From: Bryobacterales bacterium
GTDB taxonomy: Bacteria; Acidobacteriota; Terriglobia; Bryobacterales; Bryobacteraceae
NCBI GenBank assembly: GCA_963799105.1
Contig: CAWCVR010000001.1
Coordinates: 1,032-65,031, forward strand
Reading direction: 5' to 3'
Length of the DNA stretch: 64,000 nucleotides
Position 1 is the stretch's first letter. The number at the start of each line of letters is the position of its first letter. Made by a program: the position numbers and the translations under genes. Under the pieces are notes generated by a model. That model was not told the DNA's origin and made no database searches. It was given only the letters and a program-made list of their open reading frames with translations. This document shows positions 6,426 through 36,849 of the stretch, piece by piece.

Positions 6426-7931
6426 TTGCAATTGCCGCTTTCGAAGGAATTAAGGCTTCTGGAGAACCGTTGGAAGAGTGGTCAGGGATGGCCTAAACGG
6501 TTAGAGTGGATAGAGATAGAAGGACTCAGGGGCTGGACTGGCGAGAGAATTGAGTTCCAGTTCCCCATCGTTGCGCTCGTGGGAGAGAATGGCATAGGGA
6601 AGAGCACTGTGCTTCAAGCGGTTGCCGCATCCTACAAGGGGGAGTCACAGCGGCAACATTATGCGTCGGATTTCTTCCCTGACACGCCGTGGGAGCAAGT
6701 CACTGGCGCGGAAATCAGGACTTCCATGCGGGAGGGCCCTACTTCAGGCTCGATTTCGGTTAGCATCCGGCGACCTTCCGAGCGCTGGCGCGGCAACGAT
6801 GAACGCAGGGAGCGAGATGTCGAATACATCGACCTCCGTCGAATCCAGCCGATTGCATCTAGAACTGGTTATGCGCGAATGGCGAAGCGTGAAGTTAAAG
6901 AGAGAGCCGTCCAGGCATTTGACGTTGCCACAGTGGAACGCCTGTCGGGCCTAATGGGTCGAAACTACGACTTGGCTAAAGTTTCCACGACGGATGTTGA
7001 CGAATTTCGAACCGTTCCCGTTTTGTCTAAGAACGGTAGATGGTACTCCGGTTTTCATGGCGGTGCAGGTGAGACGGTTATGGCAGAACTGCTCCAGCGC
7101 CGCATCAAGAAGTACTCTATCGTTTTGATCGATGAGGTCGAAACCTCCCTTCATCCGAGGACTCAGCGTAGGTTTATTCGGGATTTGGCTACTATCTGCC
7201 GGAACCTTGATGTCCAGTGCATAGTAAGCACTCATTCTCCGTATGTATTGGACGAACTGCCGCCAGAGGGCCGGATCTACCTAATGGAGAGCGACGGCCA
7301 ACGAAAAATCATGGTAGGGGTTAGCCCGGCATTTGCTATGTCCAAAATGGACGACGAACCTCACCCCGAAGCGGACGTTTACGTTGAAGACGAGCGAGCC
7401 AAGACACTGGTGAATGAAATCGTCGCCTTCTCCGACAGAAAGGATCTGATCACTCGGTACCAAGTAGTTCCCTTTGGCGCGGCGAACGTGGGAAGAGCGC
7501 TTGGATCGATGGTTAAGGGGAAGCGCTTCCCTCGCCCTTCAGTTGTGTTTTTGGATGGCGATCAAGAGGCGAGCGAGGGCTGCCACTTGTTGCCCGGAGA
7601 AGACGCACCGGAGCGGGTCGTATTTGATCAACTGCAAAAGAGCGGTGTTGATGGTCTGGCCGCGAGGCTGGGCCGTTCCGCTTCGAATATTGCCGAAGCC
7701 TGCATCGCCGCTATGTTGATTGGGGACCATCACGAATGGGTACGCTACGCAGCGGATCGCCTTACCGTACCGGGCAATGTCTTGTGGCAGGGAATGTGCG
7801 CGGAGTGGTCTATCCGGTGCCTCTCACCGATAAGCGCCAATAGGGTTGGCGACGCGATCCTTGAGGCAATTATTCAGTATGGCGGCTCACAGCATGTAGA
7901 GCAGACGCCGCCGCAGTCGAGACTCTTCTAG
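6426..7931 (+). CDS. OLD-family nuclease-like protein: ABC-type ATPase fused to a Toprim/DUF4435-like domain
   Basis: 501 aa. Walker A is 'GENGIGKST', Walker B is 'IVLIDEVETSLHP', and 'STHSPYV' is present. The C-terminal region has a Toprim-like Glu ('VYVEDERAK') and DxD ('VVFLDGDQE'). GGAGG lies at 6421-6425. The true start may be the TTG at 6432. Confidence 0.7.
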   Translation: MQLPLSKELRLLENRWKSGQGWPKRLEWIEIEGLRGWTGERIEFQFPIVALVGENGIGKSTVLQAVAASYKGESQRQHYASDFFPDTPWEQVTGAEIRTSMREGPTSGSISVSIRRPSERWRGNDERRERDVEYIDLRRIQPIASRTGYARMAKREVKERAVQAFDVATVERLSGLMGRNYDLAKVSTTDVDEFRTVPVLSKNGRWYSGFHGGAGETVMAELLQRRIKKYSIVLIDEVETSLHPRTQRRFIRDLATICRNLDVQCIVSTHSPYVLDELPPEGRIYLMESDGQRKIMVGVSPAFAMSKMDDEPHPEADVYVEDERAKTLVNEIVAFSDRKDLITRYQVVPFGAANVGRALGSMVKGKRFPRPSVVFLDGDQEASEGCHLLPGEDAPERVVFDQLQKSGVDGLAARLGRSASNIAEACIAAMLIGDHHEWVRYAADRLTVPGNVLWQGMCAEWSIRCLSPISANRVGDAILEAIIQYGGSQHVEQTPPQSRLF

Positions 7932-8166
7932 CACTAGTTACCCCTTGCGCGGCCTGCCGCCGCCGTCTGTGCTTGCGTGGCCGCGATCTTGGCGACGTAC
8001 TCAGGCCCGCGCATTGCCGTCACTTTGCCTCCCTTCGCACCCAGGACGACTGCGGGCGACGTAGTGCGCAAGAGCGCCACAGCCACGCGTAGTAATCAGC
8101 CGTGCTCTGCGCGGGTGCTGCATTCTTACGGGACTTCATCGCCAACTTGCCAAAACAGATGGCTTG

Positions 8167-8517
8167 TCACTCCTGCGGGTCCGTTGGGAACAGCGCATCG
8201 ACAAGCGGCTTTAGCCATCGGCGATCCGCATTGGCTGTGTACGAGTCCCAGGTCTGGAGGGCGGCTTTGATGCGGGCCGTCTCCAGATCGGAGAACTCGA
8301 AGTCTTGGGGCGGGATCGAGAGCGCGGGGTTCCACACCATCCGCTCCGTCCCGTTCACCATCTCGCGCTTCAGTTCGATGAGCTTCTCCTCGTCGGCATC
8401 GAGGGCGAGCTTGTCCTGCACCGCCCAGATCGCGCGAATAGACCCCACGTCTGCCCGCTGCGCGCCCAGGAGCGCGTGCAGGTTCAGACGCTGGGTATGG
8501 TCCAGCGTCAACTTCAT
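8167..8517 (-). CDS. Hypothetical phage protein, last gene of the structural operon
   Basis: This 116-aa ORF has normal amino-acid composition (MKLTLDHTQRLNLHALLGAQ..). An AAAGGA ribosome-binding site lies upstream. It starts 22 nt after the tail-fibre stop. Confidence 0.65.
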   Translation of the reverse strand: MKLTLDHTQRLNLHALLGAQRADVGSIRAIWAVQDKLALDADEEKLIELKREMVNGTERMVWNPALSIPPQDFEFSDLETARIKAALQTWDSYTANADRRWLKPLVDALFPTDPQE

Positions 8518-8538
8518 TCGATTTGTCCTTTCGGGGGA

Positions 8539-10914
8539 TTACGGGTTCGAGTAGAGGAGGATGTAGCCCGCCGTGGCTCCGGCAGGCGTTCTTCACTTTG
8601 AGCACGCCAGACCATCCGGACGGGTTGGTGGCGCCCATCAGTTCGGCGAGGCGGTAGCCATTGCCGGTGCCGCCCGCGAGGATCAACTCGCCGCCGGCGG
8701 TGACCTCCACCAGCCTGTGGTCCGCGAGGTTCGAGCCGGGACCGTAGATCCGAAGTGGCGACTCCGCGTTGTCCTTGGCAGCGATCACGGTCGCGCCGCA
8801 CGCGATTCCTGCCGCAACGGCGGCGGTCTGCGACGCCCACGTACGGGCGTAGCCAGCCTTCGGATCGTTGCCCTGCTGCAGGCATGCGCCCCACAGGTAG
8901 ATGGCGCCGCTGGTCCAGTTGTCGCCGTTCCCGGCGAACTGGCGCACGACGATCCAGAGTCCGGTCTGCCCGCCCGCCAGCGTGCCGGTGATCTTGAACC
9001 GCTGCCACGCCGTCGTGAGCGTGATGCTCGTCGGGCCCGCGAGGTATCCGGCATAGGCGTTGTCCACGATGGCGATGGACACCTGCTTCGTTCCGGACGC
9101 GACCTTGGCCCAGACGTAGAACGTGTACTGGCCTCCGGACGCCAAGCCCGCGATCTGCTGCTGGACGATAGGCGTCGCGGTTACCGCCGTGATGGTGTCC
9201 GCGGTCGCGTTGCCATCCGGTGCGGCGGTGCTGTTCGCGGTGGCCGAGCAGGAACCGCCGTTCTTGTCCCAGGTCGCGACGGTGAAGTCCTCGGAGTACT
9301 TCGCCATGTTCTCGAAGGGACCGCCCACCGTTTGGAACGCGCCGCACTCGAACGATTGGAAGTGGGAGTCCAGGTAAGCCCACTGATTGTTGGCGGCGAC
9401 ATAGCCGAATGACGCGCCGCCGGAGCCATCGCGCAGCACCAGGGTGCTGGCCGTCGCGCTGGCTGTGCCCGAGGTGCGCGCGTTATCGAGAGTGCCACTG
9501 ACGATGTCCGTTGCGGCGTGGGTGTGGGCCGTGTCCGCCTTGGCTGTGCTGCTGCCGTTCACCAAGACGCAGTCCGTGACAGTTCCGGCTGCGCCGTCCA
9601 GTTGGCCGGAGGAGTTGATTACCGCCGCCTTGGAGACGGCCCACGCGGTGCCCTTCACGGGGCGGTTCGTCAGATCGGTCGCCAAACTGGTCACGTCCGA
9701 TTCGGCGTGCGTGTGCGCCGGGAGATCGCCAGCCAGAAGGCTATCCCACGCCGGCGCAGCGGACACCGTCCCGGTCCCGGTCTGCCGCAGGAACTTCCGG
9801 CTCGCGGTGGTGTTCCCCGCCAGGCGCGCCCAGGCGGGCGTCCCGTTCGCCGCGATGAGGTCACCCAGGACCGGCGCGGCAGCCACGGTGTCCGGATGCG
9901 TCGCGGAGAGCAGGTTGTGCGTGGTGGCGCCGCTTGCAGCCGCCACCGTAACGTTCACGCGGTCGTTGCCTGCATCGTCCGCGACCGTCAACGTCACGTT
10001 CGCCCCTTCGATCAGGTTCAACGCCCGGCGCGTCCCAACCGCTGTGCCCGCCTTCTGGATCGTGAACGGCAGCGCTCCGGAAACGATGTCGGTGGCCACA
10101 TGGGTGTGGGCGGGGAGGTCGCCAGAAACCAACGCCGCGCCGCCTGTGACGCGCCCCTTGGCGTCCACGGTGACCTTCGGGTACGTCCCTGCCACCACGC
10201 CCGTCGCCGCCAACGAGGCCACCCCTGCCGCCACAGCAAGCCCGCCGACCGGGTCCACCTGGACGATGCCCTTGCTGGTGGTCGTGGCGTCCGGGTAGGA
10301 GAACGCGCCGAAGGTCTGGCCCGCCGCGAAGTCGATAATGGCGTCCATCGCCAGGTGGTTGCTGGCGTTCAAAGCCATCGCCGAGGTCGCCCGAGTTGTC
10401 AGCCTTGCGCCACTTGACCGCGCCGAGGTTGGGCAGGCGTACCAGGCCCGTGGCGGCTTTGTTCCCCGACCCGAATTCCGCGCCGTCCTGGAACGTCTTC
10501 AGGCCGGTGATGGTGACCGCGCCGTTCTTCTGGACGTAGTTGCGCGCCGCCGCCGTGCCGAGCTCGTTCTCGATGGCCAGCACCGCCGACTGGAGCGCGG
10601 TGATGAAGCCGGAGACCATGTTGGCCTTCACCGGGACGCCGCTGGCGTGCGTGGCGGCGGTCGTACCGAATGCCCCGCGCTGGCAGCCGGTGAACTGCGT
10701 GCCGGTCTTCGCAGTGTAAACGATCAACTCGTCGTCGATGGAGAGGATGCCGTAGCGTGGCGGCGAATCCGCCCGCCGTGGACTGCACGGAGATTGTGGA
10801 GTCGCCGGCGCCGATGGCCGCCGTGGCTGTGGTTTCGAGCGGCTTGGTCGAGAACGCATCGACCGGCGAGTACAGCGTGGACGGCCCGTCAATCGCAGTC
10901 GGAAAGTCAGTCAT
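8539..10914 (-). pseudogene. Phage tail fibre / receptor-binding protein with three +1 frame breaks
   Basis: The ATG at 10914 overlaps the upstream stop (ATGA). The coherent peptide is spread over 3 frames. It reads MTDFPTAIDGPSTLYSPVDAF..STAGGFAA / RYGILSIDDELIVYTAKTG..KADNSGDL / AMALNASNHLAMDAI..(repeated 'GDLPAHTH' motifs)..GVLKVKNA / AGATAGYILLYSNP* (stop 8541-8539). Breaks are at ~10760, ~10385 and ~8584. Confidence 0.7.
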
Positions 10915-13900
10915 TGCATTTTGCCTTGTTCGCTTCGAAGCGATTGAGTGCGCCGCCAGCCACCGCTCCCACTGGTACCGCGATGACAGATCTCGACCGC
11001 GCGCGCGGCCATGGGCTTGAAGTACTGCGCGCCGGTCACCTGCATCTGGCCGGCGATTTCGAGCGGGACCGGGCGGGAGTTCAGGCAGAACTGATCGAAG
11101 GCCCAGTAGCAGAACGAGTAGAGCTTCAGCGGGAGCCACATCCCGTACGCCTGCGCCATAGGCGGGTCCGGTGGGCCGTACAGACCCGCTCAGGAACATG
11201 CATTCCGACGCCGGCCTCCCGAGCGCGATGCTTGCGAACGTGATGGCCTGCTTCATCAGGCCGGAGTTCTTCTGCCACACGTCATAGTCGAATCCCTCGC
11301 ACCGGAAATACTTGATCCCGTACGAGGAGTTCTTCCATTGGTTCGGCAGGTTCACAGAGAAGTTGAGCGCCCGGAACTTCGTGCTCGGCTTGGGCGCGCC
11401 CTGGTTCGCATCGAGAGGCCACAGGCACTCGAACACGGCGGTCGGATGATACCCGCGGACGTATGTGATCACGTCCTGGCAGTAGGCCCAAATGCGGTCG
11501 CGCAGGAAGTCGGCGGATCTCGTTCTGGTGCGCCGGGTCGCCAGCGGGATCATCGGTGTTTGCCCGGAATGGCCAGATCTGGTGGCCCTTGGCGGCGGCG
11601 AAGTCGCTGATGGTGTCCTGGTCGTAGTAGGGCATCCCGCCGTTCGCGTCCTGTGCCTGATTGTCGAAGTACCACCACTGCGTCTCCCCGAACTGAAGCA
11701 CCACCGGCAGGCCCGCCGCCTCGATCTGGTCGGCGCACTCTTTGTACATCTGGCGCAGGTACGTCCGGACGCGGGTGCCAAAGTGCATCTGGTGCGAGGG
11801 GACGCCCAGGTCCACGTCCGCGCCTGGCGACACGACGCCGCCCGAGTAGGAGAGGTACTTGGCGCGCATCGCGGCAGGAGGGAGGTAGCACTCCATCGAG
11901 AAAGCGAACGACGCCATGATGCCCGCCGCCTGGAACTGGCCGGCGAGATCGCGAATCCACTTTCGCGCGCCCTCGGTCATGACGGGCGAGACGGCGTCGA
12001 TCATGTCCCAATCGCCGTCGGCGCCAGCCGTGCCAAGGTGGTCCGTGAGCGTGAGCGTCACGGAGTTCGGCGTGCCTACCGCGACGCCGGTGTACGTCCA
12101 CGAAGGCGCCTTCGATTGGATGCGGAGCGTGGTGCTCGATCCGAAGTTATCGTCGGCCCACACGCCTGAGAACATCCCGTTGATGATCGCGCGCATGTCG
12201 GAGACGATCCCCTGCAGCGTCTCGCCGTACCCGATGGCGTGGTTGATCGTGGTCCCACCAATCGAGAACGAGACCACGTCGCCCGCGACGGGCGTGCCGG
12301 AGAAATCCACCGTGGCGTATGGATAGGTGGCGTTGATGCGCCGCCGCTTGTTGTTCCAGAAGACGCCCATGTACACATCGGCGTGGCCCTTGAAGCCGAG
12401 CTTCTGGAGTTGCCAGAGGTGCCATGCCGGAGGCTTCTTGTAGCCGTGGTCGGTGTCAAAATCCATGGCGAGGGACACGTCGGTATAGATCTGCGGGGCG
12501 TCCGGAACGTCCTGTGGCTCCAACGGCCAGAGGTAATCGAAGTAGAAGTAGTACCCGCTGCTGGCGGCGTTCTTGCTGAACAGGGCGGTGATCTCGACGG
12601 TGTGGTTGCCCGCCGCCACGCCGCCCCGCACTTTCAGATTCGCCGTTGTGCCGCCGTACTCGTTCAAATACAGATCGTGGGTGGTCGCCACGCCATCGAC
12701 GGACACGCTGACCTTGCCGCAATCGGTGTTGAGAAAGGTCCCAAGGTAAAGATCGTGCTGGCGCGGGTACGAGTAGCGGAGCGTGACCTTGCGAACGTCG
12801 AGCGAGTTCGAGGCCGCGGTGCGCTTCGCGTGTCCCTTGCTCCACCACTGCGACGGCCACCCCACCGCGCCGTACTTGTAGTCCTCCCAGAAGCCGGTGT
12901 ATTTGCATCGCGCGTCCCCTTCCTCGATCCGGTCCGACCCGCCGCCCACCTTCAGGCTGCCGTCACCGCTCACCGCGATATTGGAGATCGTGCATCCCCA
13001 CTCGACGTTGCCGGCGAAGCCGGAGACAGGAGAGAGCTTCTTCAGGCGCACGCCAGCCGACCACGTGCCGGGCGTAGAGGCTTCGAAACCGCGCGCCACG
13101 GTGATCTGGGTTCCCGAGACGACGGACAGCAGTTGGATGCGCTCCTCGCTGGTCGGCGTGCCAATGAAGTACCGGCCACCGGTCAACTTCGTCGCGTCGT
13201 CCACCGTCCACGTCGCATCGGAGGAGCCCACGCCCGCCGTGAGGAAGCAGCCGTCCTGGAGGTCCTGCTCGACGTTCTCGAATCGCGGCGCGAAGACCAT
13301 GTACATCTTGCGGCAGTCGCTCATCGGAACGGACCGCGCCATTCTTGTCCAGCAAGGTCTGCGTGAAGTCGAGCGTAACGTGGTACTTCGTGTTGTTGTC
13401 ACCGTTCGCGAACATGAAACTCGAACCGCTGCCCGCCGTCCACTGGAATCCCTGCCCGCTGCTGACCGGGACGCCGGCCAGCGTGCGGCCATGAGCGACG
13501 AAGACGCGATCCAGATTCCCGAGTTTCCCGTACCGCGCTGTCGGCCCGGTGCCCAGCACGAAGGTAAGAGTAATGCCGCCGGTGCTCGGGCCACTGGCCC
13601 AAGCCTGCGCGTGAATCACGCCGCTCTGGTCCGGACCAAATCTGCCGGCAACGGAAGCGCCCACCGTGTTGATGATGTCCGCGAGCTTCTTGGCGACATG
13701 CCATGCCTTCGTCTTCCGTGTCACGAAGGAGCCACTCGGATGGCCCATCGATACGCTCGCGTGGAGCGCGCCCGCGCCCACTCCTATTACGGTGGTCTGT
13801 TCCTCGTTGCGGCCGGTGCGCTCGATCCAGATGCCATCGCCTGTGTCGAACCCCGCAGAACTCTGCACCGGCAGGGTGATATCACCAGCGTTCACATTGG

Positions 13901-14436
13901 CTCTCAGTTGGGTTTCGACCCGGCAGTCCGAACTGGTCACCGTGTACCGGGTATCGCGGAAGTAGAGGTGGAGCCAGTCGATTCCGCCATCCATGTTCTC
14001 TTCGCCGTTGATATCGACGAGGACGGTGGCAGCGGTCTCGCTGCCAGAGAAAGCGGTCGCGTGGTCGAGCAGACGCACTTCGTGGGTGTCGCCGGCGCCG
14101 GTAACGAACGTCATGGCGTCCCAGGAGACGGACGGATACTTCGCCGCATCGAACCGCATCGCGCCGTCGAGAGCCTGATCGTATTCGATATCGAATTCCA
14201 GTTTCAGGCCGGAGAGATCGGTCTTCGGCAAGTGCTTCAGGCGCAGGTGGTTGAAGTAATCGTAAGCGTTCCACCAGCCCAGCACCGCGAAGTCCTCCGC
14301 AGCCTGGAAGATGCCGGAGATCGAGACACCGGTCTGCGGTGGCATCGTGGAGAGTGGTCGTCGCGCCGCGGCCAGTGAATCCCTGCAACTGGAAGTTGCG
14401 GCGGGGGTCGAAAATCTGGAGTGGTTCAGTCGACAT
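10911..14436 (-). pseudogene. Large (~1,175-codon) phage tail/host-interaction structural protein with four +1 frame breaks. The C-terminal half may be glycan-hydrolase-like (uncertain).
   Basis: ATG is at 14436 (MSTEPLQIFDPRRNFQLQGF..). A continuous sensible peptide is obtained only by joining four more track ORF frames (12963-14444, 11282-13594, 10399-11781, 10911-11159). Joins fall at ~14350, ~13330, ~11515 and ~11190. It ends with a TGA that overlaps the tail-fibre ATG. Confidence 0.6.
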
Positions 14437-14517
14437 GGAGCCAATCGCTACGTCAGGACCTGGTGCAGAGGGAGAAACCCAACGTCTGCGCATTCTGATA
14501 CCATCGGCGAAGATCCA

Positions 14518-15222
14518 ATGGACGAACGATTACGCCTGCTCGTTGAACTCGAGCATAGTCTGAAGACCCCCCTACTTGCCGCGATTCGAACAGCGGACAT
14601 GGCCATTGATCGCGGACAGCCGACTACTGAAGATCTCGTTGTCATTCGCGCCTTCTGTACGAGGATGTATGCGCAACTCTCGACAGCCCGAATCTTTGCC
14701 CGAATTGCCTCCGGTGAGCAAGTAAGCGTTGATGTCGTTCCGGTGTCTCTGTCTCAGGTTTTGAGAATGCTTCATATCACGGCGCGGGACGCTGAAGCGT
14801 TGGAGAGGCGGGACAACCGCAACAGGATCGAGGTGGAAACGGATGCACCTCAGGATATCTCGGTCGATGTTGACATCAGTCTGTTCGAGGTCGCAATCAG
14901 GAATGTCCTCGACAATGCGATCAAGTACAGCTACCATGGCACGCCAATCCGGATTACAGTAGCCGGTCGTGCCGGACTGGAGATTGCTGTTGCCAACAAG
15001 GGACTACGCCTTCAACCCGCTGAGGTTCAGCAAGTGTTCGAACGGGGCTGGCGATCTCGCTCCGCTATGTCTGTGCGTGGAGAAGGGTCCGGGATTGGCC
15101 TGTGGATTGTCCAGCAGGCAATGAAGGCGCTCGATGGAAGCGTGTCGATAGACGTTGCCGATGATTTAACTACAGTCAAACTCTGTCTACCGTACTCAAA
15201 ACATGCGACTACTGATCGTTGA
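14518..15222 (+). CDS. Minimal histidine kinase (DHp + catalytic ATPase core only, no sensor or TM domain)
   Basis: ATG is at 14518 (MDERLRLLVELEHSLKTPLL..). The H-box His is at residue 13, the N-box is 'VLDNAIKYS' and the G-box is 'GEGSGIGLW'. The ORF upstream of 14518 is antisense to the phage gene. The gene overlaps the next gene by 20 nt. Confidence 0.85.
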   Translation: MDERLRLLVELEHSLKTPLLAAIRTADMAIDRGQPTTEDLVVIRAFCTRMYAQLSTARIFARIASGEQVSVDVVPVSLSQVLRMLHITARDAEALERRDNRNRIEVETDAPQDISVDVDISLFEVAIRNVLDNAIKYSYHGTPIRITVAGRAGLEIAVANKGLRLQPAEVQQVFERGWRSRSAMSVRGEGSGIGLWIVQQAMKALDGSVSIDVADDLTTVKLCLPYSKHATTDR

Positions 15223-16105
15223 AGACGAAGATACTGAAGCTCAATACCTGCGGACTGAGCTATCAAAGGCGTTTCCCGGCCTCGAAGTATTGACGATATC
15301 GACTGAGAGCAGTTTTCGTCTGGAGCTACCCAAGATTGCGGCGGCCCCTCCAGACGTCATTATCCTGGACATGCTTCTGCGCTGGTCAGACTCTTCGGAC
15401 GAGACTGCGGAACATGATTTCTTGCGGGCAGGTCTTCGATGCCAAGAACTGCTGGCGTCCGATCCTCGCACTCGGTCAACGCCGATAGTGTTCTATAGCG
15501 TGGTCCCACGCGCCGATATTGCAGGGCTGCAACTCCCAAGTAATGTGTTTTACTGTCAAAAGACTGCCGAGCCTTTCGACGTTATCCGGAACGTGCGCAG
15601 CCTCCTCGCTGCTCAGGGAAAGCGGCCAGTGACCGACGCTGTGCAAACACCGCGAGATGGCGTGTTCATCAGCTACAGCCACAAGGATAAGCGCTGGCTG
15701 GACGAGCTCCTCGTGACGCTCACACCTTATGACAAGGGCGGTCGTCTGTGCCTCTGGTCGGACAGAATGCTCAAACCCGGCGAGGATTGGCGACAGTCGA
15801 TCACACAGAACTTAACCCGGGCGAAAGTCGCGGTGCTGCTGGTCAGCAGGTACTTCCTTGATTCCAAGTTCATACAAGAGAATGAACTCCCTCCTCTTCT
15901 TGACGCGGCTAAACACCACGGTCTACGTGTCTTCTGGATACCAGTGAGCGCTAGCGGCTATCACAAAACCCAAATTGCCGGATACCAAGCGGCATCGGAC
16001 CCCACGAGGCCCCTTGATTCGCTCGGTCGCGCAGACCGCGGCAGGGAACTTGTTCGTATTGCGGACTTGTTGGAGGAAGCCATCAGTAATCAACGGAGCC
16101 TTTGA
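15203..16105 (+). CDS. Response-regulator receiver domain fused to a TIR domain
   Basis: 300 aa. The receiver has 'LLIVEDED', acceptor Asp56 in 'DVIILDMLL' and 'IVFYSVV'. The TIR has 'VFISYSHKDKRWLDELL' and 'VAVLLVSRYFLDSKFIQENEL' (candidate catalytic Glu). The frame is intact, and the gene is more A/T-rich than the flanking phage DNA. Confidence 0.85.
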   Translation: MRLLIVEDEDTEAQYLRTELSKAFPGLEVLTISTESSFRLELPKIAAAPPDVIILDMLLRWSDSSDETAEHDFLRAGLRCQELLASDPRTRSTPIVFYSVVPRADIAGLQLPSNVFYCQKTAEPFDVIRNVRSLLAAQGKRPVTDAVQTPRDGVFISYSHKDKRWLDELLVTLTPYDKGGRLCLWSDRMLKPGEDWRQSITQNLTRAKVAVLLVSRYFLDSKFIQENELPPLLDAAKHHGLRVFWIPVSASGYHKTQIAGYQAASDPTRPLDSLGRADRGRELVRIADLLEEAISNQRSL

Positions 16106-16114
16106 TTTTCGACG

Positions 16115-18813
16115 TTACGTCTGGATCACCACCGTCAGATCGGAGCCAGGATCGGGCGTGGCAACCGCCTTGATATCGAACGCCAAGTCGTTTCCTTCGA
16201 TCAGCACGGCGGTGGGCCAGATCGAAGGCCGGATGGTCGATCCCGCCGGATGGTTTTGGGCCACGATGGCGGTGAAGGTCTGGTTCGCCGCATCCACCGA
16301 GATCACGTTCACATGCTCCTCGTTGGCCTGGCCGAACTCCAGGAACACGAAGTCGCCGGGTGCCAGGCCACTGGTCGATCCGTCATAGGATGCCGTCGCC
16401 ACCGCTTGCGCAACGCCGCTGCCGGTGATCGGGGCGGTGGTGATCAGCCCGTAGTCGTCATATGGCAGGCGGCGCGTCTCCGGCTTACCGTAGCCTTGGG
16501 AGACGAGGAAGTCCCAAGTGTTCTTGAACGGCGTCCCGAGGTTCTGCGCGATGCCCATCTTCTCCAGCACGTTCCACGTCGCGCCGCCGTCGGTCGAGTA
16601 CTTCACGACGAAGGCCGACTGGCCATCGCTGGTCCCTTGCTGGAGGTACGCATAGACGCACCGGATCGAAGCGGCGTTCTGAACCTTCATCGGGATCGCG
16701 ACGTTGTCCTGGACCGCGAGCGCGCCGGGAATTTGGAATGTGTAAGCGCCGCCGGAGCAGGTGCGGTCGCCCGGCATGAAAGGCTCGTTGTGGTGCGAGA
16801 GCGGAAACGTCGTGAACGGCCCATACCCGAAGTGGTTCGCCACACCCACAACCGCCGCGACCACGCACGCCGAGGGAAGCGTCGCCTCGATGCGCGGCGG
16901 GCAATCCGGGGGTCCGGAAGAAGCCCTTTTTCACGGAGTATGTGAAGATCTTATAGTCGAGCCTGAAGAATCGGATGCCCTTCGCGTGCGGGCACCGTAG
17001 CGTCTCGAACGACGCCCAATCTTCCGGCTCTCCGGCCCAGTATCTCTGGAACTGGAAATTCCCGGTCGGGACCACATCGCCGGTATTACCGGGACCGACA
17101 ATCTGGGCGCACTCGTATGATCGCCGGTAACCGACGTTCGGGTCGCGCGATTCGTCGTTGAAGATCACGAAGTCGCCCACCTGGAATGACCGGGAGGTGC
17201 TGGGGTTCACGGTGCATGTCACCGTCACCGGATCGGTGTCTTTGTCGATGGCGGAGTCGAGGCTGGCCCACAGGTCGGTCGCAAGCTCGTCGATGTAGTA
17301 CAGAGACATCGCAACCTCGTTCGCGCCCACGATATTCGCGTTGCCGGAGGCGTCCGGAAGCACCTCCATCTGATCGAGGGCGAAAGTGCCGTAGTCGGAG
17401 AGCTTCGGCGTCCCAGTCTACGATGCCGGGAACTCCGTTGTCTTGCAGGTTCTCGTCCGGCACCGGCGCGGCGGCAACGTCGGCGGGCTTCGGGCCGGCG
17501 ACCAGATCGTACATGGAGTCCGTGGTCGTGCGGCCCTGGATGTCGATGGAGTAATCCTTGTTGAGCTTCCAAGACGAGACGCGAAACTCGCCCGAGCCGC
17601 CCGGCATATCCGGATGCGTCATCGAGCAGACCATCCCCGGCTCGGTGTTGAGCGCCAGGACCGTGGTGCGGAAGACCAACTGGCGCGCTGCCTTCCACTC
17701 CGCGATGCTGGTGCCGCCCAACTCCTCGCGCAGCCGGATGCTGATAATCCGCGCCGCCTGCGACTTCGTGCAGGTGCCGGATAAATTGACGTTGGATTTC
17801 AGGAACAGCGGACCCGCTGCACCGCCCAGTAGCGTGGCGCGGTCGATATCGTAAACCGTGACTGAGTTGTTGACGAACTTGTAATCCTGGTCCGCGAAGT
17901 TGGCGGTGAGGTGGTCGAACGAGGGCTTCAGCGGAGCCAGTTGGAGGGAATTGAAGACGATGTTCCCGACGGTAAAGGCCTCCACGGTCGAGGAGTTCTC
18001 CCGCACGCCGATCTTGAGCTTGCCGAACGAGAACGTGTAGTAGCCCAGGCAGTTCATCAGCACTTCCTGGAGCCAGTCACGGAGGGGCTTCGCCGCTTCG
18101 CCGAACTTCACCAGCCAATCGGAGTTGTCCTTCAGGAAGCCCACAAGATCGCGCAGATGGCCGACCCACGACCGCAGATACCCCTGGAACTGCTCGCCCA
18201 CCGCCTCCTTCAGTTCATTCACTTCGCGGGCGAGTGCGGCGGACTGCTCCTCCGCGCTGCCAGTCGCAGCGGCGTGGGCACCTTGAATCTTGGCGGCCTC
18301 GCGCATGACCGCGTTGTACCGGAGTTGCAGAACCTCATTCTCGCCGAGGGTCACTTCCTGCCTGCCAAACGGCATGTCGAGCAACCGCGCGAATCCGCGC
18401 CGGTACTCGAACACGTCCTTGGCTGAGGGCATCTTCAGCAGGTGGACGGTCGTCGCGCCCAGGACCCGGAGAGTGACCTTGAAGGAGTCGCCGTCCGGAA
18501 CTACATCGTCCACTTCCGCCAGGCTCAACTGCTCGACGACCTTCATAGCCTCGAAGGCATCGATCTCCGGGGCGTCGCCGTCGGTGGGCTTCGCTTGGAT
18601 GAGGGCTACCAGCGCGGCATCCACATCCTCTCCATTGGCCACGGTGGTCTCGGAGATGCCGCGCCCCAACTGCTTCACCAGCACCTTGCGGCGTCGCTGG
18701 CGTCCGATCCATTCGTCATCGGAGGGGAAGCGGACGCGCACGGCTTTCACGCCGCCCGGCGTCCGCAGGTTGATCGTAATCGGCCTGCTTGCGTCAAATA
18801 CTGGGGTTTCCAT
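16115..18813 (-). pseudogene. Composite tail gene: tail-assembly-chaperone-like N-terminus joined to a lambda-J/Phage-tail_3-like tip protein, with two +1 frame breaks
   Basis: The peptide METPVFDASRPITINLRTPGG.. (~150 aa) runs directly into ..AEEQSAALAREVNELK.. and ..LTANFADQDYKFVNNSVTVYD..PGMVCSMTHPDMPGG... Frame joins are at ~17410 (..GIVDWD / TPKLSDYGTFALDQMEVLPD..) and at ~16910 in a GGGGG run (..KKGFFRTP / DCPPRIEATLPSACVVAAVV..). The stop is at 16115. Confidence 0.55.
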
Positions 18814-21247: not shown

Positions 21248-21961
21248 TTACGCCGCAGCGGTGGTGTAAAGCACCCAGACCTCGATCACGCCAGCGGTCA
21301 GCGGGCCGGTGGCGATCGTGACGTTGATCTTGCCGGCCGCCGTCATCTTGAACGGGGTGGCTTGGCACGTCGGTACGACCACCGCATCCAAACCGAGCGA
21401 CGCCTTGCCGGTGGCCGTCAAGATGGAGTTGGCTGCGGAACCCGCGGCGGTTCCAATCGCGACCGTGGCCGATCCGGATGCGGTCACCGCGGCGGTGGAG
21501 TTGACCACGCCGCCCAGCACCACGGCATTGTCGGGAATGGTGTCGCTGTTGGCCGGAGTGCAGGTGGCGCCGCCGTCCACGGAATAGTCATAGAGCGCAT
21601 GCGCCACTTTGACGCCGTGCGCCTGCCCCGAGAAGCCGGGCACGCCGAACAGGTTGACCCGCACAGTGGCGACACCCGTCGCGGCGGCCACCTCGACCGC
21701 TCCGATCAGCAGGTTGCTGGCGACCGTGGACGTTACCTTCTTCGCCGAGTCGTCCCAGTAGGCCAAATCGCCCTGCGCAAAGGTGCTGCTGTCCTTGGCC
21801 AGGTCGTAGACGCCCTCGACGTTGCACTCGACGTCGGCGCCCGAGAGCGTGTCGTTGGCTGCCACACCGAAGACGTTGCCCACCTTGAAGCCGCCCCCGG
21901 ACAGCACGTCGTAGGGCGCGGCGAGGGTGAGATTATCACCGCTTTTCACGAAATTCGTCAT
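21248..21961 (-). CDS. DUF2190-family (capsid-decoration-like) protein with a C-terminal extension
   Basis: ATG is at 21961 with an AAGGAG ribosome-binding site. The peptide MTNFVKSGDNLTLAAPYDVLSGGGFKVGNVFGVA..DLAYWD resembles DUF2190 proteins found next to major capsid genes. The track ORF's N-terminal 40 codons look spurious. Confidence 0.6.
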   Translation of the reverse strand: MTNFVKSGDNLTLAAPYDVLSGGGFKVGNVFGVAANDTLSGADVECNVEGVYDLAKDSSTFAQGDLAYWDDSAKKVTSTVASNLLIGAVEVAAATGVATVRVNLFGVPGFSGQAHGVKVAHALYDYSVDGGATCTPANSDTIPDNAVVLGGVVNSTAAVTASGSATVAIGTAAGSAANSILTATGKASLGLDAVVVPTCQATPFKMTAAGKINVTIATGPLTAGVIEVWVLYTTAAA

Positions 21962-22040
21962 GATCCATTTCTCCTTTTTGTCTGTCTGAAATGTTGCGCG
22001 CGGACACGGAGGCCCGCGCGCGCCTGTTGGCTCAACCGCC

Positions 22041-24141
22041 CTACGCTGCCACCGTGTTCTTGCAGAGGCCACGGTAGTCAATCGCGCCCGCCGCGAAGTC
22101 CAACCGCGCCTTGATTTCCACGCCGTCCACCTCGAAGCCCTGGCGGGTCTCGATGTAAACGCCCTGCTGCCCTTCGAGGTAGCAGTACTCGATGGTGTCG
22201 ATCTGCGAGGGATCGACCGCCATAAACCAGTTCGTCACGCCGAGCGAGGCGACCGCATCGAGGCGGCCTTCGACGATCTTCACTAGGGACTGCACCCAGG
22301 GCGGAACGACGCCCGTCACAGCGGTCGAGGCCAGGTTGATCGGGATAGATCAACTGGTCGGCGGTCTGTTCGAGCGCGGCGGGGACGATCAGGTACCGGG
22401 GCTGCAGATTCAGGACCGTGCCCTTGGGCGCCTTCTGCACGCGCAGTGCGGCGCGGGCTGTGGCCAGTGCGCCGAGCGCGAGCGCGTTGCTGCCGTTCAG
22501 GTTCTTGTGGTTCGCGTGGAACAGCGGGTTGCCGTCTGCCATGTTCGGGTTGCCGGTGATGACTGCCCAGACGGTGTCGCTTTCGAGTTGGGCAGCCGCC
22601 TGGCCGAGGCCGGCAGGAACGCGGGTCAGCGCCTGCAGGTCGTCGTTGACGATAACCTTGCGCGTGATGGCCACGATCTCGCCGAAGGTAGCCAGCGAGT
22701 AGGTCTCCTTCGAATCCGATAGCGCCGTGCGATGGAACTCGCCTTTTTCGTTTACCTTGGGCAACGTCGGAACGTCGCTCAACTGCACGCGGTTGATGGG
22801 CTTGAAGTCCGCGGCCGACACCTGGCGGCAGAACGGTACGAAGGTGCGCGGCGCGGCCTCATAAGCCTGGCGCAGCGTCTTGTTAGCGACGTTCGCCAGG
22901 ATATTGGGGAAGTCGCTGGTGGTCGCCATCCCGCCCTCAAAATACTCTTCGGCGCCATGCCGGCCTTGCAGAGCCACTCGCGCGATTTCGTTGCGGCTCA
23001 TCCCCCGCGTTTTCACGCCGACGGCCTCCAGGCACTCGCGTGCGATATCCACGAGCGTCAGGCCGGCGTACTCCCGACCTGCGTCGCGCAGCTTCGAGTC
23101 GCCGGGATTGCCACGGAACAGAATGCCGGCCTCCATTCCCTCCCGCCGCTTGTCTCTCGCGTCCGCACCCATCGTCACGGTCGGGTTGACCGGGTCGGTA
23201 TGGTGCTCGCCCCACTGAGCGGCAAGCTTCGTCATGATGCGCTCGCGCGCGATCTCAACGGACAAGCCCTCGTCGATGATCGCGTTGACGAACTTCTCCT
23301 CCAGTTTGAAGGGGTTGGCCATCGTGCGAATCGTGGTCGCACGAAGGCGTTCCGTCTTCACTGCCTCGTCGCGCGCCGCGGCGAGTACTACTTCGTTCTG
23401 ACGGGCCTCTTCGCCCGCAACCTGCGTGCTTGGTTCCACTGGGGTCTCCTTATGGGCAGATGCCCGTTGCGTTTCAACTACAGTCGATTGCGCCGGTGGC
23501 TGCGTTCCTGCCGCCGACATGAAAGTCGTGTTTGCGTCGCCGGGAATCGGTGTGAGAGATATCTCAAACGGCTCCCAATCGACTGCCGTGAATTCCTTGC
23601 GCGCCTGGTTCTTGGGGGTAGTATCGACCTTTTTGTAGATCCACATCCCTGGGCTCAGGTTTTGAATGATGCCGGCGCGAACGTCGTTCCAGATGGGCGT
23701 CACGGAGTCGCGCTTACTGAACTGAATGGTTGCCTTGCCGGTTGCGCCCACGGCCCACGCGCGCCTGATGACTCCCATCTGGCTCTCGACGCCACACGCC
23801 ACGTGGGAGTCCAGCACGGGCCCGCCATTGTTGAGGCGATCCAGGCGGCAGCCTTTCATCGAGAGGATGAGATCGTACTCCTCTCCACTGCGCCAGTCGA
23901 ACCGGGGAACCTTCGCGCCGGTGTACCAGACGGCGTCGATCATCCGGTTGTCGTCATCTGCGGATGAGGGCGCGAATGCCACCGCCACGGCGAAATGTTC
24001 CACCTCCACCCCCGGATCGACGGGGGTGCTGCCCACGGCACTCAAGCCTGCTGCGACAGCATCCGGCCCGGTGCTGGCGCTAGCGGCGATCACCTCGGCA
24101 GGCGCCTCGGCCTCCTGGCGTTCAGCAATTTCGTCTGGCAT
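22041..24141 (-). pseudogene. Prohead protease / major capsid protein fusion with one +1 frame break
   Basis: The N-terminal protease-like region contains 'GGPVLDSHV'. The capsid part reads ..TSDFPNILANVANKTLRQAYE..NPLFHANHKNL... The frame join is at ~22340 (..TADQLIYP / INLASTAVTGVVPPWVQSL..AGAIDYRGLCKNTVAA*). Confidence 0.7.
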
Positions 24142-25726: not shown

Positions 25727-25939
25727 TTACTCCCTGCTGTGCACGGCCAAGCTGAAAGAGGATGGCGCAGGTCCCGATACCCTGGCGATCTCGGCATTGA
25801 TATCGGCCAGCGCCTTCCGCTTGTCGTCGATGCTGTCATAGTCAACCGCGCGGTCGGCGAACTGCACCCGGCGAGTCCCGCTGAAGATCGCGCGCTGCAG
25901 CGTGTCGCGCGCGGAAAGAAGCTCGGAGAGTTGCATCAT
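25727..25939 (-). CDS. gpW-like head-tail joining protein
   Basis: 70 aa. It lies between large terminase and portal, as in lambda, and its start overlaps the terminase stop. Confidence 0.6.
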   Translation of the reverse strand: MMQLSELLSARDTLQRAIFSGTRRVQFADRAVDYDSIDDKRKALADINAEIARVSGPAPSSFSLAVHSRE

Positions 25940-35138: not shown

Positions 35139-35345
35139 TCAGTATTCGGCTCGCATTTCTGCCTCCAGAATCCTCAACTCGGCCGACCAGTCTGCCAGCG
35201 CCATGCATAGGCCCTCGACGTCAGGGTGCCCGGCGAGGAGCAACAACTCCGCGGCTGCAATCTCGTCGCGGCACCGGTCCACCTCACGCTGCCACTGCGC
35301 TTCGCTCTGCGGCGACCACGCTGTGGCTTCTCCCGTCGGAGTCAA
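35139..35345 (-). CDS. Small hypothetical protein (at most 68 aa; start uncertain)
   Basis: The track ORF has a TTG start. Its 5' end overlaps the corrected-frame C-terminus of the methyltransferase, so the true start may be the internal GTG (VDRCRDEIAAAELLLLAGHPD..). Confidence 0.3.
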   Translation of the reverse strand: MTPTGEATAWSPQSEAQWQREVDRCRDEIAAAELLLLAGHPDVEGLCMALADWSAELRILEAEMRAEY

Positions 35346-36700: not shown

Positions 36701-36849
36701 GGCGTACGGCAGCAGCCGGTCAGCGCGGCGCAAGGTTCGATTTGCGTGGGTGGGTCGATAGTATGTACGTTAAGCAACCCCAGGCGCTTGCGATGGTGAT
36801 AGGATAAGAGCCGTAAGCAGGTAAATTGCAATCCAGGAGGAACCGCCAA

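What the first reader, a model, noticed from the sequence alone, without database searches (positions are those of the whole stretch)
14437..16114. Sensor-less histidine kinase plus receiver-TIR fusion: a two-gene phosphorelay-gated TIR module sitting antisense inside the prophage tail region
Seen in the sequence: two plus-strand genes (14518-15222 and 15203-16105, 20-nt overlap) are wedged between minus-strand tail genes. The 1,175-codon tail gene starts at 14436. The J-like gene stops at 16115, only 9 nt after the TIR gene stop. The pair is visibly more A/T-rich than the flanking phage DNA, which is the classic layout of a prophage moron. Gene 1 is only a DHp + CA kinase core. Its H-box 'ELEHSLKTPL' has the His at residue 13, the N-box is 'VLDNAIKYS' and the G-box is 'GEGSGIGLW'. 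It has no transmembrane segment and no recognisable sensor domain. Gene 2 is a receiver ('LLIVEDED', acceptor Asp56 in 'DVIILDMLL'), a short linker and a TIR domain. The TIR has 'VFISYSHKDKRWLDELL' and 'LLVSRYFLDSKFIQENEL', which includes the Glu expected in NAD+-cleaving TIRs. Both genes are frame-intact although the neighbouring phage genes carry frame breaks. Established knowledge: bacterial TIR domains act as NADases or signal generators in Thoeris and in several other anti-phage systems. A defensive two-component system, Detocs, is also known; it has a TPR-sensor kinase DtcA, a buffer receiver DtcB and a receiver-PNP effector DtcC. Inference: this locus would be a minimal and distinct architecture, with no buffer receiver, no sensor domain and TIR in place of PNP. 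The phosphorylation state of the receiver would gate TIR assembly and NAD+ depletion. It might act as prophage-encoded superinfection immunity. I do not know of a described defence system with this gene pair.
Basis: partly seen in the sequence, partly recalled or inferred. Interest (0 to 1): 0.9.

Follow-up and report, generated by a model that had tools for sequence, protein, structure and literature searches.

The report
Kinase-gated TIR module in prophage
A prophage in a soil acidobacterium carries, in a cargo slot between two tail genes, a stripped-down histidine kinase and a receiver protein fused to an NAD-cleaving TIR domain; it looks like an undescribed relative of known two-component anti-phage systems, but its function is untested.

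Summary
Two intact plus-strand genes fill exactly the 1,678 bp (14437-16114) between two minus-strand tail genes of a Terriglobia prophage.

- **Gene 1** is a complete DHp+CA histidine-kinase core with no sensor domain.
- **Gene 2** is a genuine receiver joined by a flexible linker to a TIR domain with an invariant catalytic Glu.
- **Cargo hotspot:** related phages have the two tail genes 1-2 nt apart, or carry other low-GC cargo there (Lit protease, BrnT/BrnA, a Schlafen-like protein, a HipA-like kinase).
- **Conserved pairing:** 10 of 11 verified related loci have a kinase of the same family directly upstream of the receiver-TIR gene.

- "Sensor-less" is one end of a series: 0, 1 or 3 GAF domains.
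- The same kinase and receiver clades also carry PNP, Pycsar-type TIR, Shedu-nuclease and DUF2321 effectors, or a stand-alone receiver.
- At least one tail-gene frame break is absent from an independent assembly.

No profile library or paper I searched names the system. It resembles Detocs in logic but fails Detocs membership: no TPR kinase, no buffer receiver, no specific homology. I rate it a new variant of a known kind. Function and signal polarity are inferred only.

The parts
14437..16114 (.). Cargo insertion (moron) between the stop of the upstream tail gene and the start of the downstream tail gene
   Evidence: Related phages have the stop and start 1-2 nt apart (L092, L099, L100, L102) or carry unrelated inserts of 0.7-5.2 kb. 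Homology to relatives breaks at 16117 and at 14427-14437. GC is 0.551 against 0.63 in the flanks.
14518..15222 (+). Sensor-less histidine kinase, 234 aa: DHp helices at residues 3-64, CA domain at residues 74-224
   Evidence: HATPase_c 2.7e-16. The family profile hits CusS, WalK and HK853 across residues 10-229. The AF2 model has pLDDT 89.6 and matches HK853 with TM 0.7. The start position is conserved in homologues.
14554..14556 (+). Codon for His13, the phospho-accepting histidine (H-box ELEHSLKTPL)
   Evidence: Nearly invariant in the family and aligned to the H-box His of CusS, WalK and VicK. It reads GAT (Asp) in the independent assembly L001/P0121.
14914..14916 (+). Codon for Asn133, the N-box residue (VLDNAIKYS)
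   Evidence: Invariant in alignments A2 and A3.
15085..15102 (+). G2 box GSGIGL (residues 190-195)
   Evidence: G190, G192, G194 and L195 are invariant.
15203..15222 (+). 20-nt overlap of the two genes, suggesting translational coupling
   Evidence: Overlaps of 4-20 nt or gaps of a few nt recur in relatives.
15203..16105 (+). Receiver-TIR fusion protein, 300 aa
   Evidence: TIR_2 3.8e-12. Sixteen full-length homologues at 40-57% identity. The AF2 model has pLDDT 88.
15203..15613 (+). Receiver domain (residues 1-137): a (beta-alpha)5 fold with a long insert after D56 and a vestigial alpha4
   Evidence: Foldseek matches to PhoB, RR468 and FrzS with TMt about 0.8. The profile hits PleD and DrrD receivers at about 1e-4. 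E7, D8, D56 and K120 are conserved.
15368..15370 (+). Codon for Asp56, the predicted phospho-acceptor
   Evidence: Invariant in A1 and A4 and nearly invariant (90% or more) across the wider receiver clade A5.
15614..15658 (+). Flexible linker (residues 138-152)
   Evidence: pLDDT is below 50 for residues 142-148. A pTM of 0.52 indicates that the relative orientation of the domains is undefined.
15659..16087 (+). TIR domain (residues 153-295)
   Evidence: Pfam TIR_2. PADLOC ThsB1 5e-13 and SAVED-TIR 8e-12. The PDB profile hits AtTIR, PdTIR and AbTIR.
15884..15886 (+). Codon for Glu228, the predicted catalytic glutamate (ENEL)
   Evidence: Invariant in 16 of 16 sequences. It aligns with the Glu of the 'DEL' and 'KEL' motifs of solved TIR domains.
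10913..14436 (-). Downstream tail gene (about 1,175 codons), read in six frame segments in this window
   Evidence: tblastn of the intact 1,183-aa L090 protein. The relative's copy has a TIM-barrel_NCTSP domain.
16115..18813 (-). Upstream large tail-module gene, with at least 2 frame changes in this window
   Evidence: Homologues were found in 20 IMG/VR contigs.

Best explanation
The cassette is a self-contained, two-gene phosphorelay-gated TIR effector. It was acquired as cargo at a moron hotspot of a temperate phage. It most likely acts as an abortive-infection or superinfection-exclusion module in the lysogen.

Proposed mechanism:
1. The kinase dimer autophosphorylates on His13.
2. It transfers the phosphoryl group to Asp56 of the receiver.
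3. Receiver phosphorylation drives dimerisation or oligomerisation.
4. This brings the flexibly tethered TIR domains together into an active assembly that cleaves NAD+ through Glu228 and stops phage replication.

In relatives, triple-GAF domains on the kinase supply the trigger. In this sensor-less form, the trigger must act directly on the DHp/CA core or on the kinase/phosphatase balance.

Shown here: domain identities, key residues, folds, conserved gene pairing, the cargo hotspot, and effector swapping on the same chassis.
Inferred: phosphotransfer, oligomerisation-dependent NADase activity, ON = phosphorylated, and the anti-phage role.
For: - The kinase core is complete: H, N, G1 (Asn, as in CusS) and G2 boxes, plus the DHp+CA fold.
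- The receiver retains the full phospho-switch set and fold.
- The TIR has an invariant Glu and the aromatic residue that aligns with the Trp four residues before that Glu in a solved plant TIR.
- The pairing is conserved. A kinase of the same family lies directly upstream on the same strand in 10 of 11 verified REC-TIR loci, often overlapping. The one exception has a related kinase two genes away.
- The same kinase family and receiver clade carry established defence effectors: PNP with a short kinase, Shedu nuclease, Pycsar-type TIR and TIR_2.
- The insertion site is a cargo hotspot. In related phages it holds a Lit protease (PADLOC 6.8e-58), BrnT/BrnA, a Schlafen/AlbA_2 protein, an HNH protein and a HipA-like kinase.
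- Neighbours of the chromosomal relatives are defence-like: AbiEi/AbiEii, TIR-NB-ARC-WD40, TIR-TPR, CHAT-TPR, RES and Tn7 TniQ.
- Detocs gives the experimental precedent. His, Asp and effector mutants abolish its defence (bioRxiv 10.1101/2023.01.24.525353).
- There is weak support for ON = phosphorylated. A natural H13D (kinase-dead) allele coexists with an unchanged REC-TIR protein. This suggests that unphosphorylated REC-TIR is tolerated.
Against: - There is no functional data of any kind.
- There is no sensor domain, no buffer receiver and no recognisable promoter or terminator. How a truncated kinase stays off is unexplained, since kinase cores of this type are usually constitutively active in vitro (own knowledge).
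- The fusion is rare. About 16 clusters were found among 5.8 billion proteins.
- The fusion is absent from the other 2.9 million viral contigs, so there is no statistical enrichment in phages.
- Most members of the receiver clade are stand-alone receivers with no attached effector. The chassis may therefore also serve non-defence signalling.
- The H13D allele could instead mean that the cassette is decaying.
Confidence: 0.55

Rival explanations
1. Inverse-polarity 'dead-man switch', or a toxin-antitoxin-like addiction module. The sensor-less kinase is constitutively active and keeps the TIR OFF by phosphorylating D56. Infection, ATP collapse or loss of the prophage stops phosphorylation. The receiver then dephosphorylates and the TIR fires.
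For: - The absence of any sensor or buffer receiver fits a constitutive kinase.
- The hotspot in related phages carries classic TA cargo: BrnT/BrnA and a HipA-like kinase.
- Tight translational coupling, with the 'antitoxin-like' gene first.
Against: - A natural H13D allele of the kinase coexists with an unchanged REC-TIR. Under this model that allele should be self-toxic.
- Close relatives use 3xGAF sensor kinases, which fits stimulus-activated kinases.
- The Detocs precedent is activation by phosphorylation.
Confidence: 0.15
2. A signal-generating TIR. Phosphorylated REC-TIR makes a cyclic-ADPR-type messenger, as Thoeris ThsB does, for an effector encoded elsewhere in the host. It does not deplete NAD+ itself.
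For: The best PADLOC hit of the TIR is ThsB1 (5e-13). The catalytic Glu is also required by signal-producing TIRs (own knowledge).
Against: - There is no ThsA-like, SLOG, Macro or SAVED partner in the 1,678-bp cassette or next to any relative.
- A mobile two-gene cargo that depends on a host-encoded effector is less parsimonious.
- Sister architectures carry directly toxic effectors: PNP and Shedu nuclease.
Confidence: 0.12
3. An ordinary, non-immune two-component pathway. The TIR domain would be a protein-interaction or metabolic output that modulates host physiology or lysogeny, not defence.
For: Most members of this receiver clade are stand-alone receivers paired with GAF kinases, which is typical of housekeeping signalling. 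One relative sits next to ABC-transporter genes.
Against: - The invariant catalytic Glu argues for an enzyme rather than a scaffold.
- Effector swapping involves PNP, Shedu nuclease and Pycsar-type TIR.
- The location is a phage hotspot shared with Lit and TA modules.
- Relatives have defence-like neighbours.
Confidence: 0.1
4. Decaying, non-functional cargo in a defective prophage.
For: The tail genes show at least 7 frame changes in this window. An H13D allele exists. No promoter was found.
Against: - Both cassette ORFs are intact in two assemblies. REC-TIR is identical and carries only a synonymous change.
- The single testable frame break is absent from the independent assembly, which suggests assembly error or strain variation.
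- Terminase, portal, head and integrase genes are intact.
Confidence: 0.08

Closest known systems
Detocs (DtcA/DtcB/DtcC defensive two-component system; Rousset et al. 2023, bioRxiv 10.1101/2023.01.24.525353)
   Same: - The logic is the same: a histidine kinase signals to a receiver fused directly to a cell-killing effector instead of a DNA-binding domain.
- Effector domains are swappable. The wider family found here even includes receiver-PNP proteins whose PNP half matches DtcC (63 bits to VaDtcC; PADLOC PDC-M60C 5.5e-29).
- Both kinds of receiver have a long insertion after the acceptor Asp.
   Different: - There is no TPR sensor on the kinase; this family has none or GAF domains.
- There is no stand-alone buffer receiver in the cassette.
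- The effector is TIR. Only endonuclease, transmembrane and hydrolase alternatives are mentioned for Detocs.
- The receiver is no closer to DtcB or DtcC (7-15 bits) than to PhoB (23 bits).
- The receiver-PNP member of this clade pairs with a short kinase of this family, not with a TPR kinase.
Thoeris ThsB and other bacterial TIR effectors (TIR-SAVED in CBASS, PCTIR in Pycsar, AbTir)
   Same: The TIR_2 domain has the conserved catalytic Glu. Domain-level hits are ThsB1 5e-13 and SAVED-TIR 8e-12 and AbTIR, PdTIR and AtTIR. Activation by induced assembly is the general TIR rule (own knowledge).
   Different: The activating module is a phospho-receiver domain, not a nucleotide-binding SAVED or SLOG domain or a free-standing sensor TIR. 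There is no ThsA partner.
Classical HisKA two-component systems (PhoQ/CusS-type kinases with OmpR/PhoB-type receivers)
   Same: The DHp+CA core, the PhoQ-like H-box (HSLKTPL; own knowledge), the CusS-like G1 box with Asn, and the receiver fold and switch residues.
   Different: There is no transmembrane, HAMP, PAS or other input domain. The output is an enzyme of the immune type rather than a transcription factor. Helix alpha4 of the receiver is vestigial.
Prophage moron / defence hotspots (for example the P2/P4 hotspots; own knowledge)
   Same: A fixed site between conserved phage genes. It is empty in some relatives and filled with diverse low-GC, antisense defence or TA cargo in others.
   Different: The site lies between two tail-module genes of an uncultured Terriglobia phage lineage. 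This cargo type was not seen in any other viral contig.

Membership tests
Detocs | Sensor kinase DtcA with N-terminal TPR repeats | tested here: not met
   The kinase is 234 aa and starts 12 residues before the H-box His. Pfam finds only HATPase_c. Long relatives carry GAF domains, not TPR.
Detocs | Stand-alone buffer receiver DtcB in the operon | tested here: not met
   Only two genes fit in the 1,678-bp insert. No extra receiver lies next to the relatives.
Detocs | Receiver fused to a cell-killing effector (DtcC) | tested here: met
   A receiver+TIR fusion, with both folds confirmed.
Detocs | Sequence homology to DtcA/B/C beyond generic domains | tested here: not met
   The PADLOC PDC-M60B hit is weak and partial (6.7e-5, residues 2-65). 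The receiver profile scores DtcB and DtcC at 7-15 bits against PhoB at 23 bits. DtcA was not compared directly because its sequence was truncated in the source.
Detocs | Defence abolished by His, Asp and effector active-site mutants | not testable with these tools
   Requires plaque assays.
Two-component system (HisKA-type kinase + receiver) | DHp helical hairpin with a phospho-accepting His, and a CA domain with N, G1 and G2 boxes | tested here: met
   H13, N133, N159-x-G161 and G190-x-G-x-GL. Profile against CusS 3.4e-28 over residues 10-229. HK853 fold match with TM 0.7. Pfam HisKA itself did not hit.
Two-component system (HisKA-type kinase + receiver) | Receiver (beta-alpha)5 fold with the acidic pocket, acceptor Asp, Ser/Thr and Lys | tested here: met
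   E7/D8, D56, S99 and K120 are conserved. TMt is about 0.8 to PhoB and RR468. Pfam Response_reg did not hit this protein but hits 11 of 32 clade members.
Two-component system (HisKA-type kinase + receiver) | Cognate genes adjacent and co-inherited | tested here: met
   10 of 11 verified loci.
Two-component system (HisKA-type kinase + receiver) | His-to-Asp phosphotransfer | not testable with these tools
   Biochemical assay needed.
Enzymatic (NAD+-cleaving) TIR domains | TIR fold and profile match | tested here: met
   TIR_2 at 47 bits against a cut-off of 28. PDB TIR hits. Foldseek match to TLR1 TIR.
Enzymatic (NAD+-cleaving) TIR domains | Conserved catalytic glutamate | tested here: met
   E228 is invariant in 16 of 16 sequences and aligned to the Glu of solved TIRs.
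Enzymatic (NAD+-cleaving) TIR domains | NADase or cyclase activity | not testable with these tools
   Enzyme assay needed.
Thoeris | ThsB-type TIR together with a ThsA effector (SIR2 or TM domain + SLOG/Macro) | tested here: not met
   There is a TIR domain-level hit to ThsB1. No ThsA-like gene is in the cassette or beside relatives.
Prophage moron | Insertion between conserved phage genes, absent from related phages | tested here: met
   Seven related contigs have an empty site and nine carry other cargo.
Prophage moron | Deviant composition and opposite orientation | tested here: met
   GC 0.551 against 0.63 and GC3 0.56-0.60 against 0.80-0.86. The cassette is on the plus strand within a minus-strand operon.
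Prophage moron | Own promoter and terminator | tested here: inconclusive
   No convincing sigma-70-type site or intrinsic terminator was found. Acidobacterial promoters may not fit the consensus.

The most novel reading that the evidence does not exclude
The cassette is the minimal, phage-borne member of a large, unrecognised second lineage of defensive two-component systems that is independent of Detocs. The lineage comprises hundreds of protein clusters. A dedicated kinase family (GAF-sensing or sensor-less) drives a dedicated receiver clade that is plugged into interchangeable immune effectors: TIR, Pycsar-type TIR, PNP, Shedu nuclease and DUF2321. In the sensor-less forms, the kinase catalytic core itself would be the phage sensor, for example as the target of a phage protein or as a reader of the ATP/ADP ratio.
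Probability: 0.3. Interest if true: 0.8.

Novelty: new variant of a known kind. Interest (0 to 1): 0.6.

Why it matters
If the pair is active, it would show three things.

- Phosphorelay control of immune effectors is not limited to the TPR-kinase Detocs system. It would be a broader design principle with its own kinase and receiver lineage.
- It would add receiver phosphorylation to the known ways of switching on TIR NADases, alongside ligand-bound SAVED/SLOG domains and NLR-type assembly.
- The natural series of kinases with 3, 1 or 0 GAF domains on near-identical effectors offers a direct handle on an open question: what do defensive kinases actually sense?

The precisely delimited cargo hotspot between two tail genes is also a ready-made place to mine for new defence genes in phages of Acidobacteriota, a poorly studied soil phylum.

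Tried and rejected
- **Pfam HisKA and Response_reg:** no hits at E<0.1. I resolved this with family profiles and structure prediction rather than accepting it as absence.
- **G1-box Asp replaced by Asn, and no acidic residue after the His:** I considered these possible signs of a dead kinase. I rejected that because active CusS has the same G1 Asn and PhoQ has the same HSLKTPL H-box (own knowledge).
- **Detocs membership:** rejected.
- **cRec domain** (a receiver-like cyclic-phosphate hydrolase that is never found with kinases; PMC9503650): rejected because a kinase is always adjacent.
- **Flanking repeats of the cassette:** only chance-level matches, apart from a 9-nt near-duplicate of the end of the upstream tail gene at both junctions.
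- **GenBank phages (blastn):** no match.
- **Genome-contig scan:** the first attempt failed because the alignment was too diverse. The second returned only TIR-half matches.
- **Viral-contig scan for the fusion:** nothing.
- **Frame-break sites:** not homopolymer-associated, so their cause is unresolved.
- **The 229-aa gene upstream of the short kinase in L002-L005:** no domain and no similarity to GAF kinases.
- **Literature searches** for REC-TIR, PDC-M43/M60, and kinase + receiver + TIR/PNP + GAF: no description of this pair.
Full report
**1. What is in the sequence**

Two plus-strand ORFs lie inside a run of minus-strand phage genes. They are 14518-15222 (234 aa) and 15203-16105 (300 aa), and they overlap by 20 nt. 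The cassette has GC 0.551 against 0.63 on both sides. Its third-position GC is 0.56-0.60 against 0.80-0.86 in the terminase and a neighbouring structural gene.

The surrounding element is a prophage:
- terminase large subunit, 25936-27873
- portal, 24167-25726
- head-protease fusion, 22078-24141
- cement protein, 21248-22081
- tail fibre with a carbohydrate-binding module, 8126-10378
- two tyrosine integrases, 29997-32134
- ParB-methyltransferases, 35342-39021
- a tRNA-Ala at 40080

Cluster members of its structural proteins are named Acidobacteriia/Terriglobia by NCBI, and the source contig is 718 kb.

**2. Gene 1 is a real but minimal histidine kinase**

- Pfam finds only HATPase_c (2.7e-16) and no HisKA.
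- A profile built from 14 family members matches solved kinases across both DHp and CA: CusS 3.4e-28 over residues 10-229, plus WalK, VicK, CpxA and HK853. The H-box His is aligned in these matches.
- The AlphaFold model (pLDDT 89.6, pTM 0.85) has two long helices (residues 3-32 and 37-64) and an alpha/beta CA domain. It superposes on the HK853 cytoplasmic core (TM 0.7, E 8e-15).
- H13 is nearly invariant. N133 and the G2 box are invariant.
- Two apparent oddities are not disqualifying. CusS shares the Asn in place of the G1-box Asp ('VENPG'). PhoQ has the same 'HSLKTPL' H-box (own knowledge).
- There is no room for a sensor, because the protein starts 12 residues before the His. Homologues start at the same MxxDER position. 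The 303-aa ORF from ATG 14311, which NCBI annotated, is therefore probably over-extended into the divergent tail-gene start.

**3. Gene 2 is a receiver-TIR fusion**

- Pfam TIR_2 scores 3.8e-12, and Response_reg gives no hit.
- Sixteen full-length homologues (40-57% identity) show invariant D56 and E228, and near-invariant E7, D8 and K120. They also keep S/T at the end of beta4 and the TIR motif FxSYSHxD.
- The model (pLDDT 88) has a (beta-alpha)5 receiver at residues 1-137. It carries a roughly 16-residue insertion after D56 and an almost absent alpha4. A disordered linker (residues 142-148, pLDDT below 50) follows, then a TIR domain at residues 153-295.
- Foldseek matches the PhoB, RR468, FrzS and PleD receivers (TMt about 0.8) and the TLR1 TIR.
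- The family profile hits the AtTIR, PdTIR and AbTIR sequences. E228 sits on their catalytic Glu, and F223 aligns with the Trp four residues before that Glu in the plant TIR AT1G72930.
- The low pTM (0.52) says the two domains have no fixed mutual orientation. That fits control by assembly rather than by a rigid intramolecular lock (inference).

**4. The pair is a conserved unit**

I examined the contigs of the relatives. A kinase of the same family lies immediately upstream on the same strand in 10 of 11 verified loci.

- Short kinase (234-237 aa): the window, P0009 (four contigs), P0008, P0006 and L118.
- Intermediate kinase (364 aa, one GAF remnant): L113.
- Long kinase (827-857 aa, three GAF domains): the contigs of P0003, P0010, P0015 and P0014. 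The P0003 kinase also has T2SSE-like hits.

The exception (P0011) has a related kinase two genes away on the other strand. 'Sensor-less' is thus one end of a series, not a separate invention. Close REC-TIR relatives (56% identity) pair with either short or long kinases.

**5. The site is a moron hotspot**

Twenty IMG/VR contigs encode homologues of the upstream tail protein.

- In seven of them the two tail genes abut, with the stop and start 1-2 nt apart. An example is 'ACGTAAcATGCCC' in L100.
- In nine, inserts of 0.7-5.2 kb lie between the genes. All have lower GC than their phage, and most are antisense.
- The cargo of these inserts includes:
  - a Lit protease (PADLOC 6.8e-58; Peptidase_U49)
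  - BrnT/BrnA
  - a Schlafen AlbA_2 + HATPase_c_4 protein
  - an HNH protein
  - a guanylate-kinase-like protein with an NDT/TIR-like tail
  - a HipA-like kinase
- None carries the kinase/REC-TIR pair.
- Homology between the window and its closest relatives (L090, L091) breaks at 16117 and at 14427-14435.
- A 9-nt near-duplicate of the end of the upstream tail gene (GACGTAACG / GACGTAGCG) sits at both junctions.

The moron claim is therefore demonstrated, not merely suggested by composition. In contrast, a pattern scan of 2.9 million viral contigs found no other copy of this fusion. This prophage is a one-off carrier.

**6. A wider family**

I searched 1.84 billion representative proteins with the receiver domain alone. 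This gave 640 hits at E<=1e-3 and 300 at E<=1e-10.

- Most of the best 150 are stand-alone receivers of about 140-170 aa.
- About 30 are longer. Of the 32 longest that I scanned:
  - 11 carry TIR_2
  - 8 carry the CAP12/Pycsar TIR
  - 4 carry DUF2321
  - 2 carry PNP
  - 1 carries the Shedu nuclease domain
- A stand-alone receiver (P0190) is preceded by a GAF kinase that scores 219 bits against the kinase-family profile.
- A receiver-PNP protein (P0310) is preceded by a 258-aa sensor-less kinase of the same family (172 bits). It has no TPR and no extra receiver.

The kinase family and the receiver clade therefore form a chassis onto which known immune effectors are swapped.

**7. Comparison with what is known**

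- PADLOC gives only domain-level hits. The kinase CA domain matches PDC-M43B, the TIR matches ThsB1 and SAVED-TIR, and the receiver N-terminus matches PDC-M60B weakly.
- PDC-M60B/C appear to be the Detocs receiver and receiver-PNP models, judging by their lengths of 158 and 407 aa. P0310 matches PDC-M60C only through its PNP half.
- The Detocs paper defines a TPR kinase, a buffer receiver and a receiver-PNP. It mentions endonuclease, transmembrane and hydrolase alternatives but not TIR. 'TIR' does not occur in the stored part of its supplement.
- The receiver profile scores DtcB and DtcC at 7-15 bits against 23 bits for PhoB.
- Full-text searches found no description of a kinase + receiver-TIR system. 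The library is incomplete, so prior description elsewhere cannot be excluded.
- The comparative-genomics papers from the Aravind group note receiver domains among conflict-system effectors, but explicitly without histidine kinases.

I therefore file it as working like Detocs but not as a member: a new variant of a known kind.

**8. Mechanism and polarity**

The most economical reading is His13 to Asp56 phosphotransfer, followed by receiver-driven assembly of the TIR domains and NAD+ cleavage. Which phospho-state is ON cannot be computed.

Three observations favour ON = phosphorylated:
- The Detocs precedent.
- GAF-sensor kinases occur in close relatives.
- An independent assembly of the same element (L001, 99.4% identical) encodes Asp instead of His13 while REC-TIR is unchanged.

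If phosphorylation were needed to hold the TIR off, that allele should be self-toxic. This is a single metagenomic observation, so it counts as weak evidence only. How a sensor-less kinase is kept quiet is unexplained. Candidates are direct sensing by the DHp/CA core, a phosphatase-dominant resting state (Thr at His+4 is present), or low expression. The antisense position inside the late operon might silence the cassette during the phage's own lytic growth (speculation).

**9. Frame breaks**

I compared the window with intact relatives (ORFs of 1,183 and 1,292 aa in L090). The window's downstream tail gene is read in six frame segments, and the upstream gene in at least three. The break sites are not at homopolymers. 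The only break covered by the independent assembly is an extra C at 14334, and it is absent there. The contrast between 'intact cassette' and 'broken phage genes' may therefore be an assembly or strain artefact. I do not use it as evidence of selection.

**10. Verdict**

It needs widening from an isolated pair to a modular family, and its function is untested. Interest is moderate to high. The concept is foreshadowed by Detocs. The chassis, the TIR output, the graded loss of the sensor and the clean phage hotspot are new and directly testable.

Noticed in passing
window 14554-14556 against L001 355-357: The phospho-accepting His13 codon (CAT) of the kinase reads GAT (Asp) in an independent Logan assembly of the same element (P0121). 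REC-TIR is identical at the protein level. This is a natural kinase-dead allele, or possibly an error.
   Followed up: partly
window 10913-14436 and 16115-18813: The two tail genes flanking the cassette carry about 7 frame changes relative to intact homologues. The one at 14334 (an extra C) is absent from the independent assembly L001. The sites are not homopolymers.
   Followed up: partly
window 14251-14431: Ten of the 15 differences between the window and L001 cluster in 180 bp at the 5' end of the downstream tail gene, next to the cargo junction. This may be a recombination patch or a hypervariable N-terminus.
   Followed up: no
window 6426-7931 (+): A second plus-strand cargo gene lies beside the tail-fibre gene. 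It is an ABC/OLD-type ATPase (AAA_21/AAA_15) that matches the PADLOC candidate HEC-04 nearly full-length (1.8e-48). It also resembles PtuA, AriA and GajA.
   Followed up: partly
window 33090-35099 (-): A 669-aa protein with a MORC-like HATPase_c_3 domain lies between the integrases and the ParB-methyltransferases. Its function is unknown (phrog_6203).
   Followed up: no
window 29997-32134 (-): Two adjacent tyrosine-recombinase genes (312 and 406 aa) lie in tandem inside the prophage.
   Followed up: no
window 14444-14452 and 16113-16121: A 9-nt near-repeat (GACGTAGCG / GACGTAACG) sits at both cargo junctions. It duplicates the last codons and stop of the upstream tail gene. It may be a footprint of how cassettes are exchanged at this hotspot.
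   Followed up: partly
L094 7030-7716; L105 6756-7392; L101 7048-8466; L091 5021-6031; L107 10780-11733: The same inter-tail-gene slot in related phages holds a Lit protease homologue, a BrnT/BrnA pair, a Schlafen AlbA_2 + HATPase_c_4 protein, a guanylate-kinase-like protein with an NDT/TIR-like tail, and a HipA-like kinase.
   Followed up: yes
L112 1212-6469: A long GAF-kinase + REC-TIR pair sits directly next to a TniQ gene. This suggests carriage on a Tn7-like transposon.
   Followed up: no
L002-L005 (for example L002 6603-7292): In the P0009 loci, a 229-aa gene with no detectable domain overlaps the start of the short kinase by 14 nt. It may be a third component that replaces the missing sensor.
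   Followed up: partly
L114 1573-3801 (-): Two unannotated genes (399 and 337 aa) lie downstream of a GAF-kinase + stand-alone receiver of this family, convergent with it. The end of one overlaps the end of the receiver gene. They are candidate separate effectors.
   Followed up: no
P0003 contig (no DNA held): The 842-aa kinase paired with the REC-TIR P0003 has T2SSE and UCP018868 hits in addition to GAF. It is flanked by two TIR-(NB-ARC)-WD40 giants.
   Followed up: no
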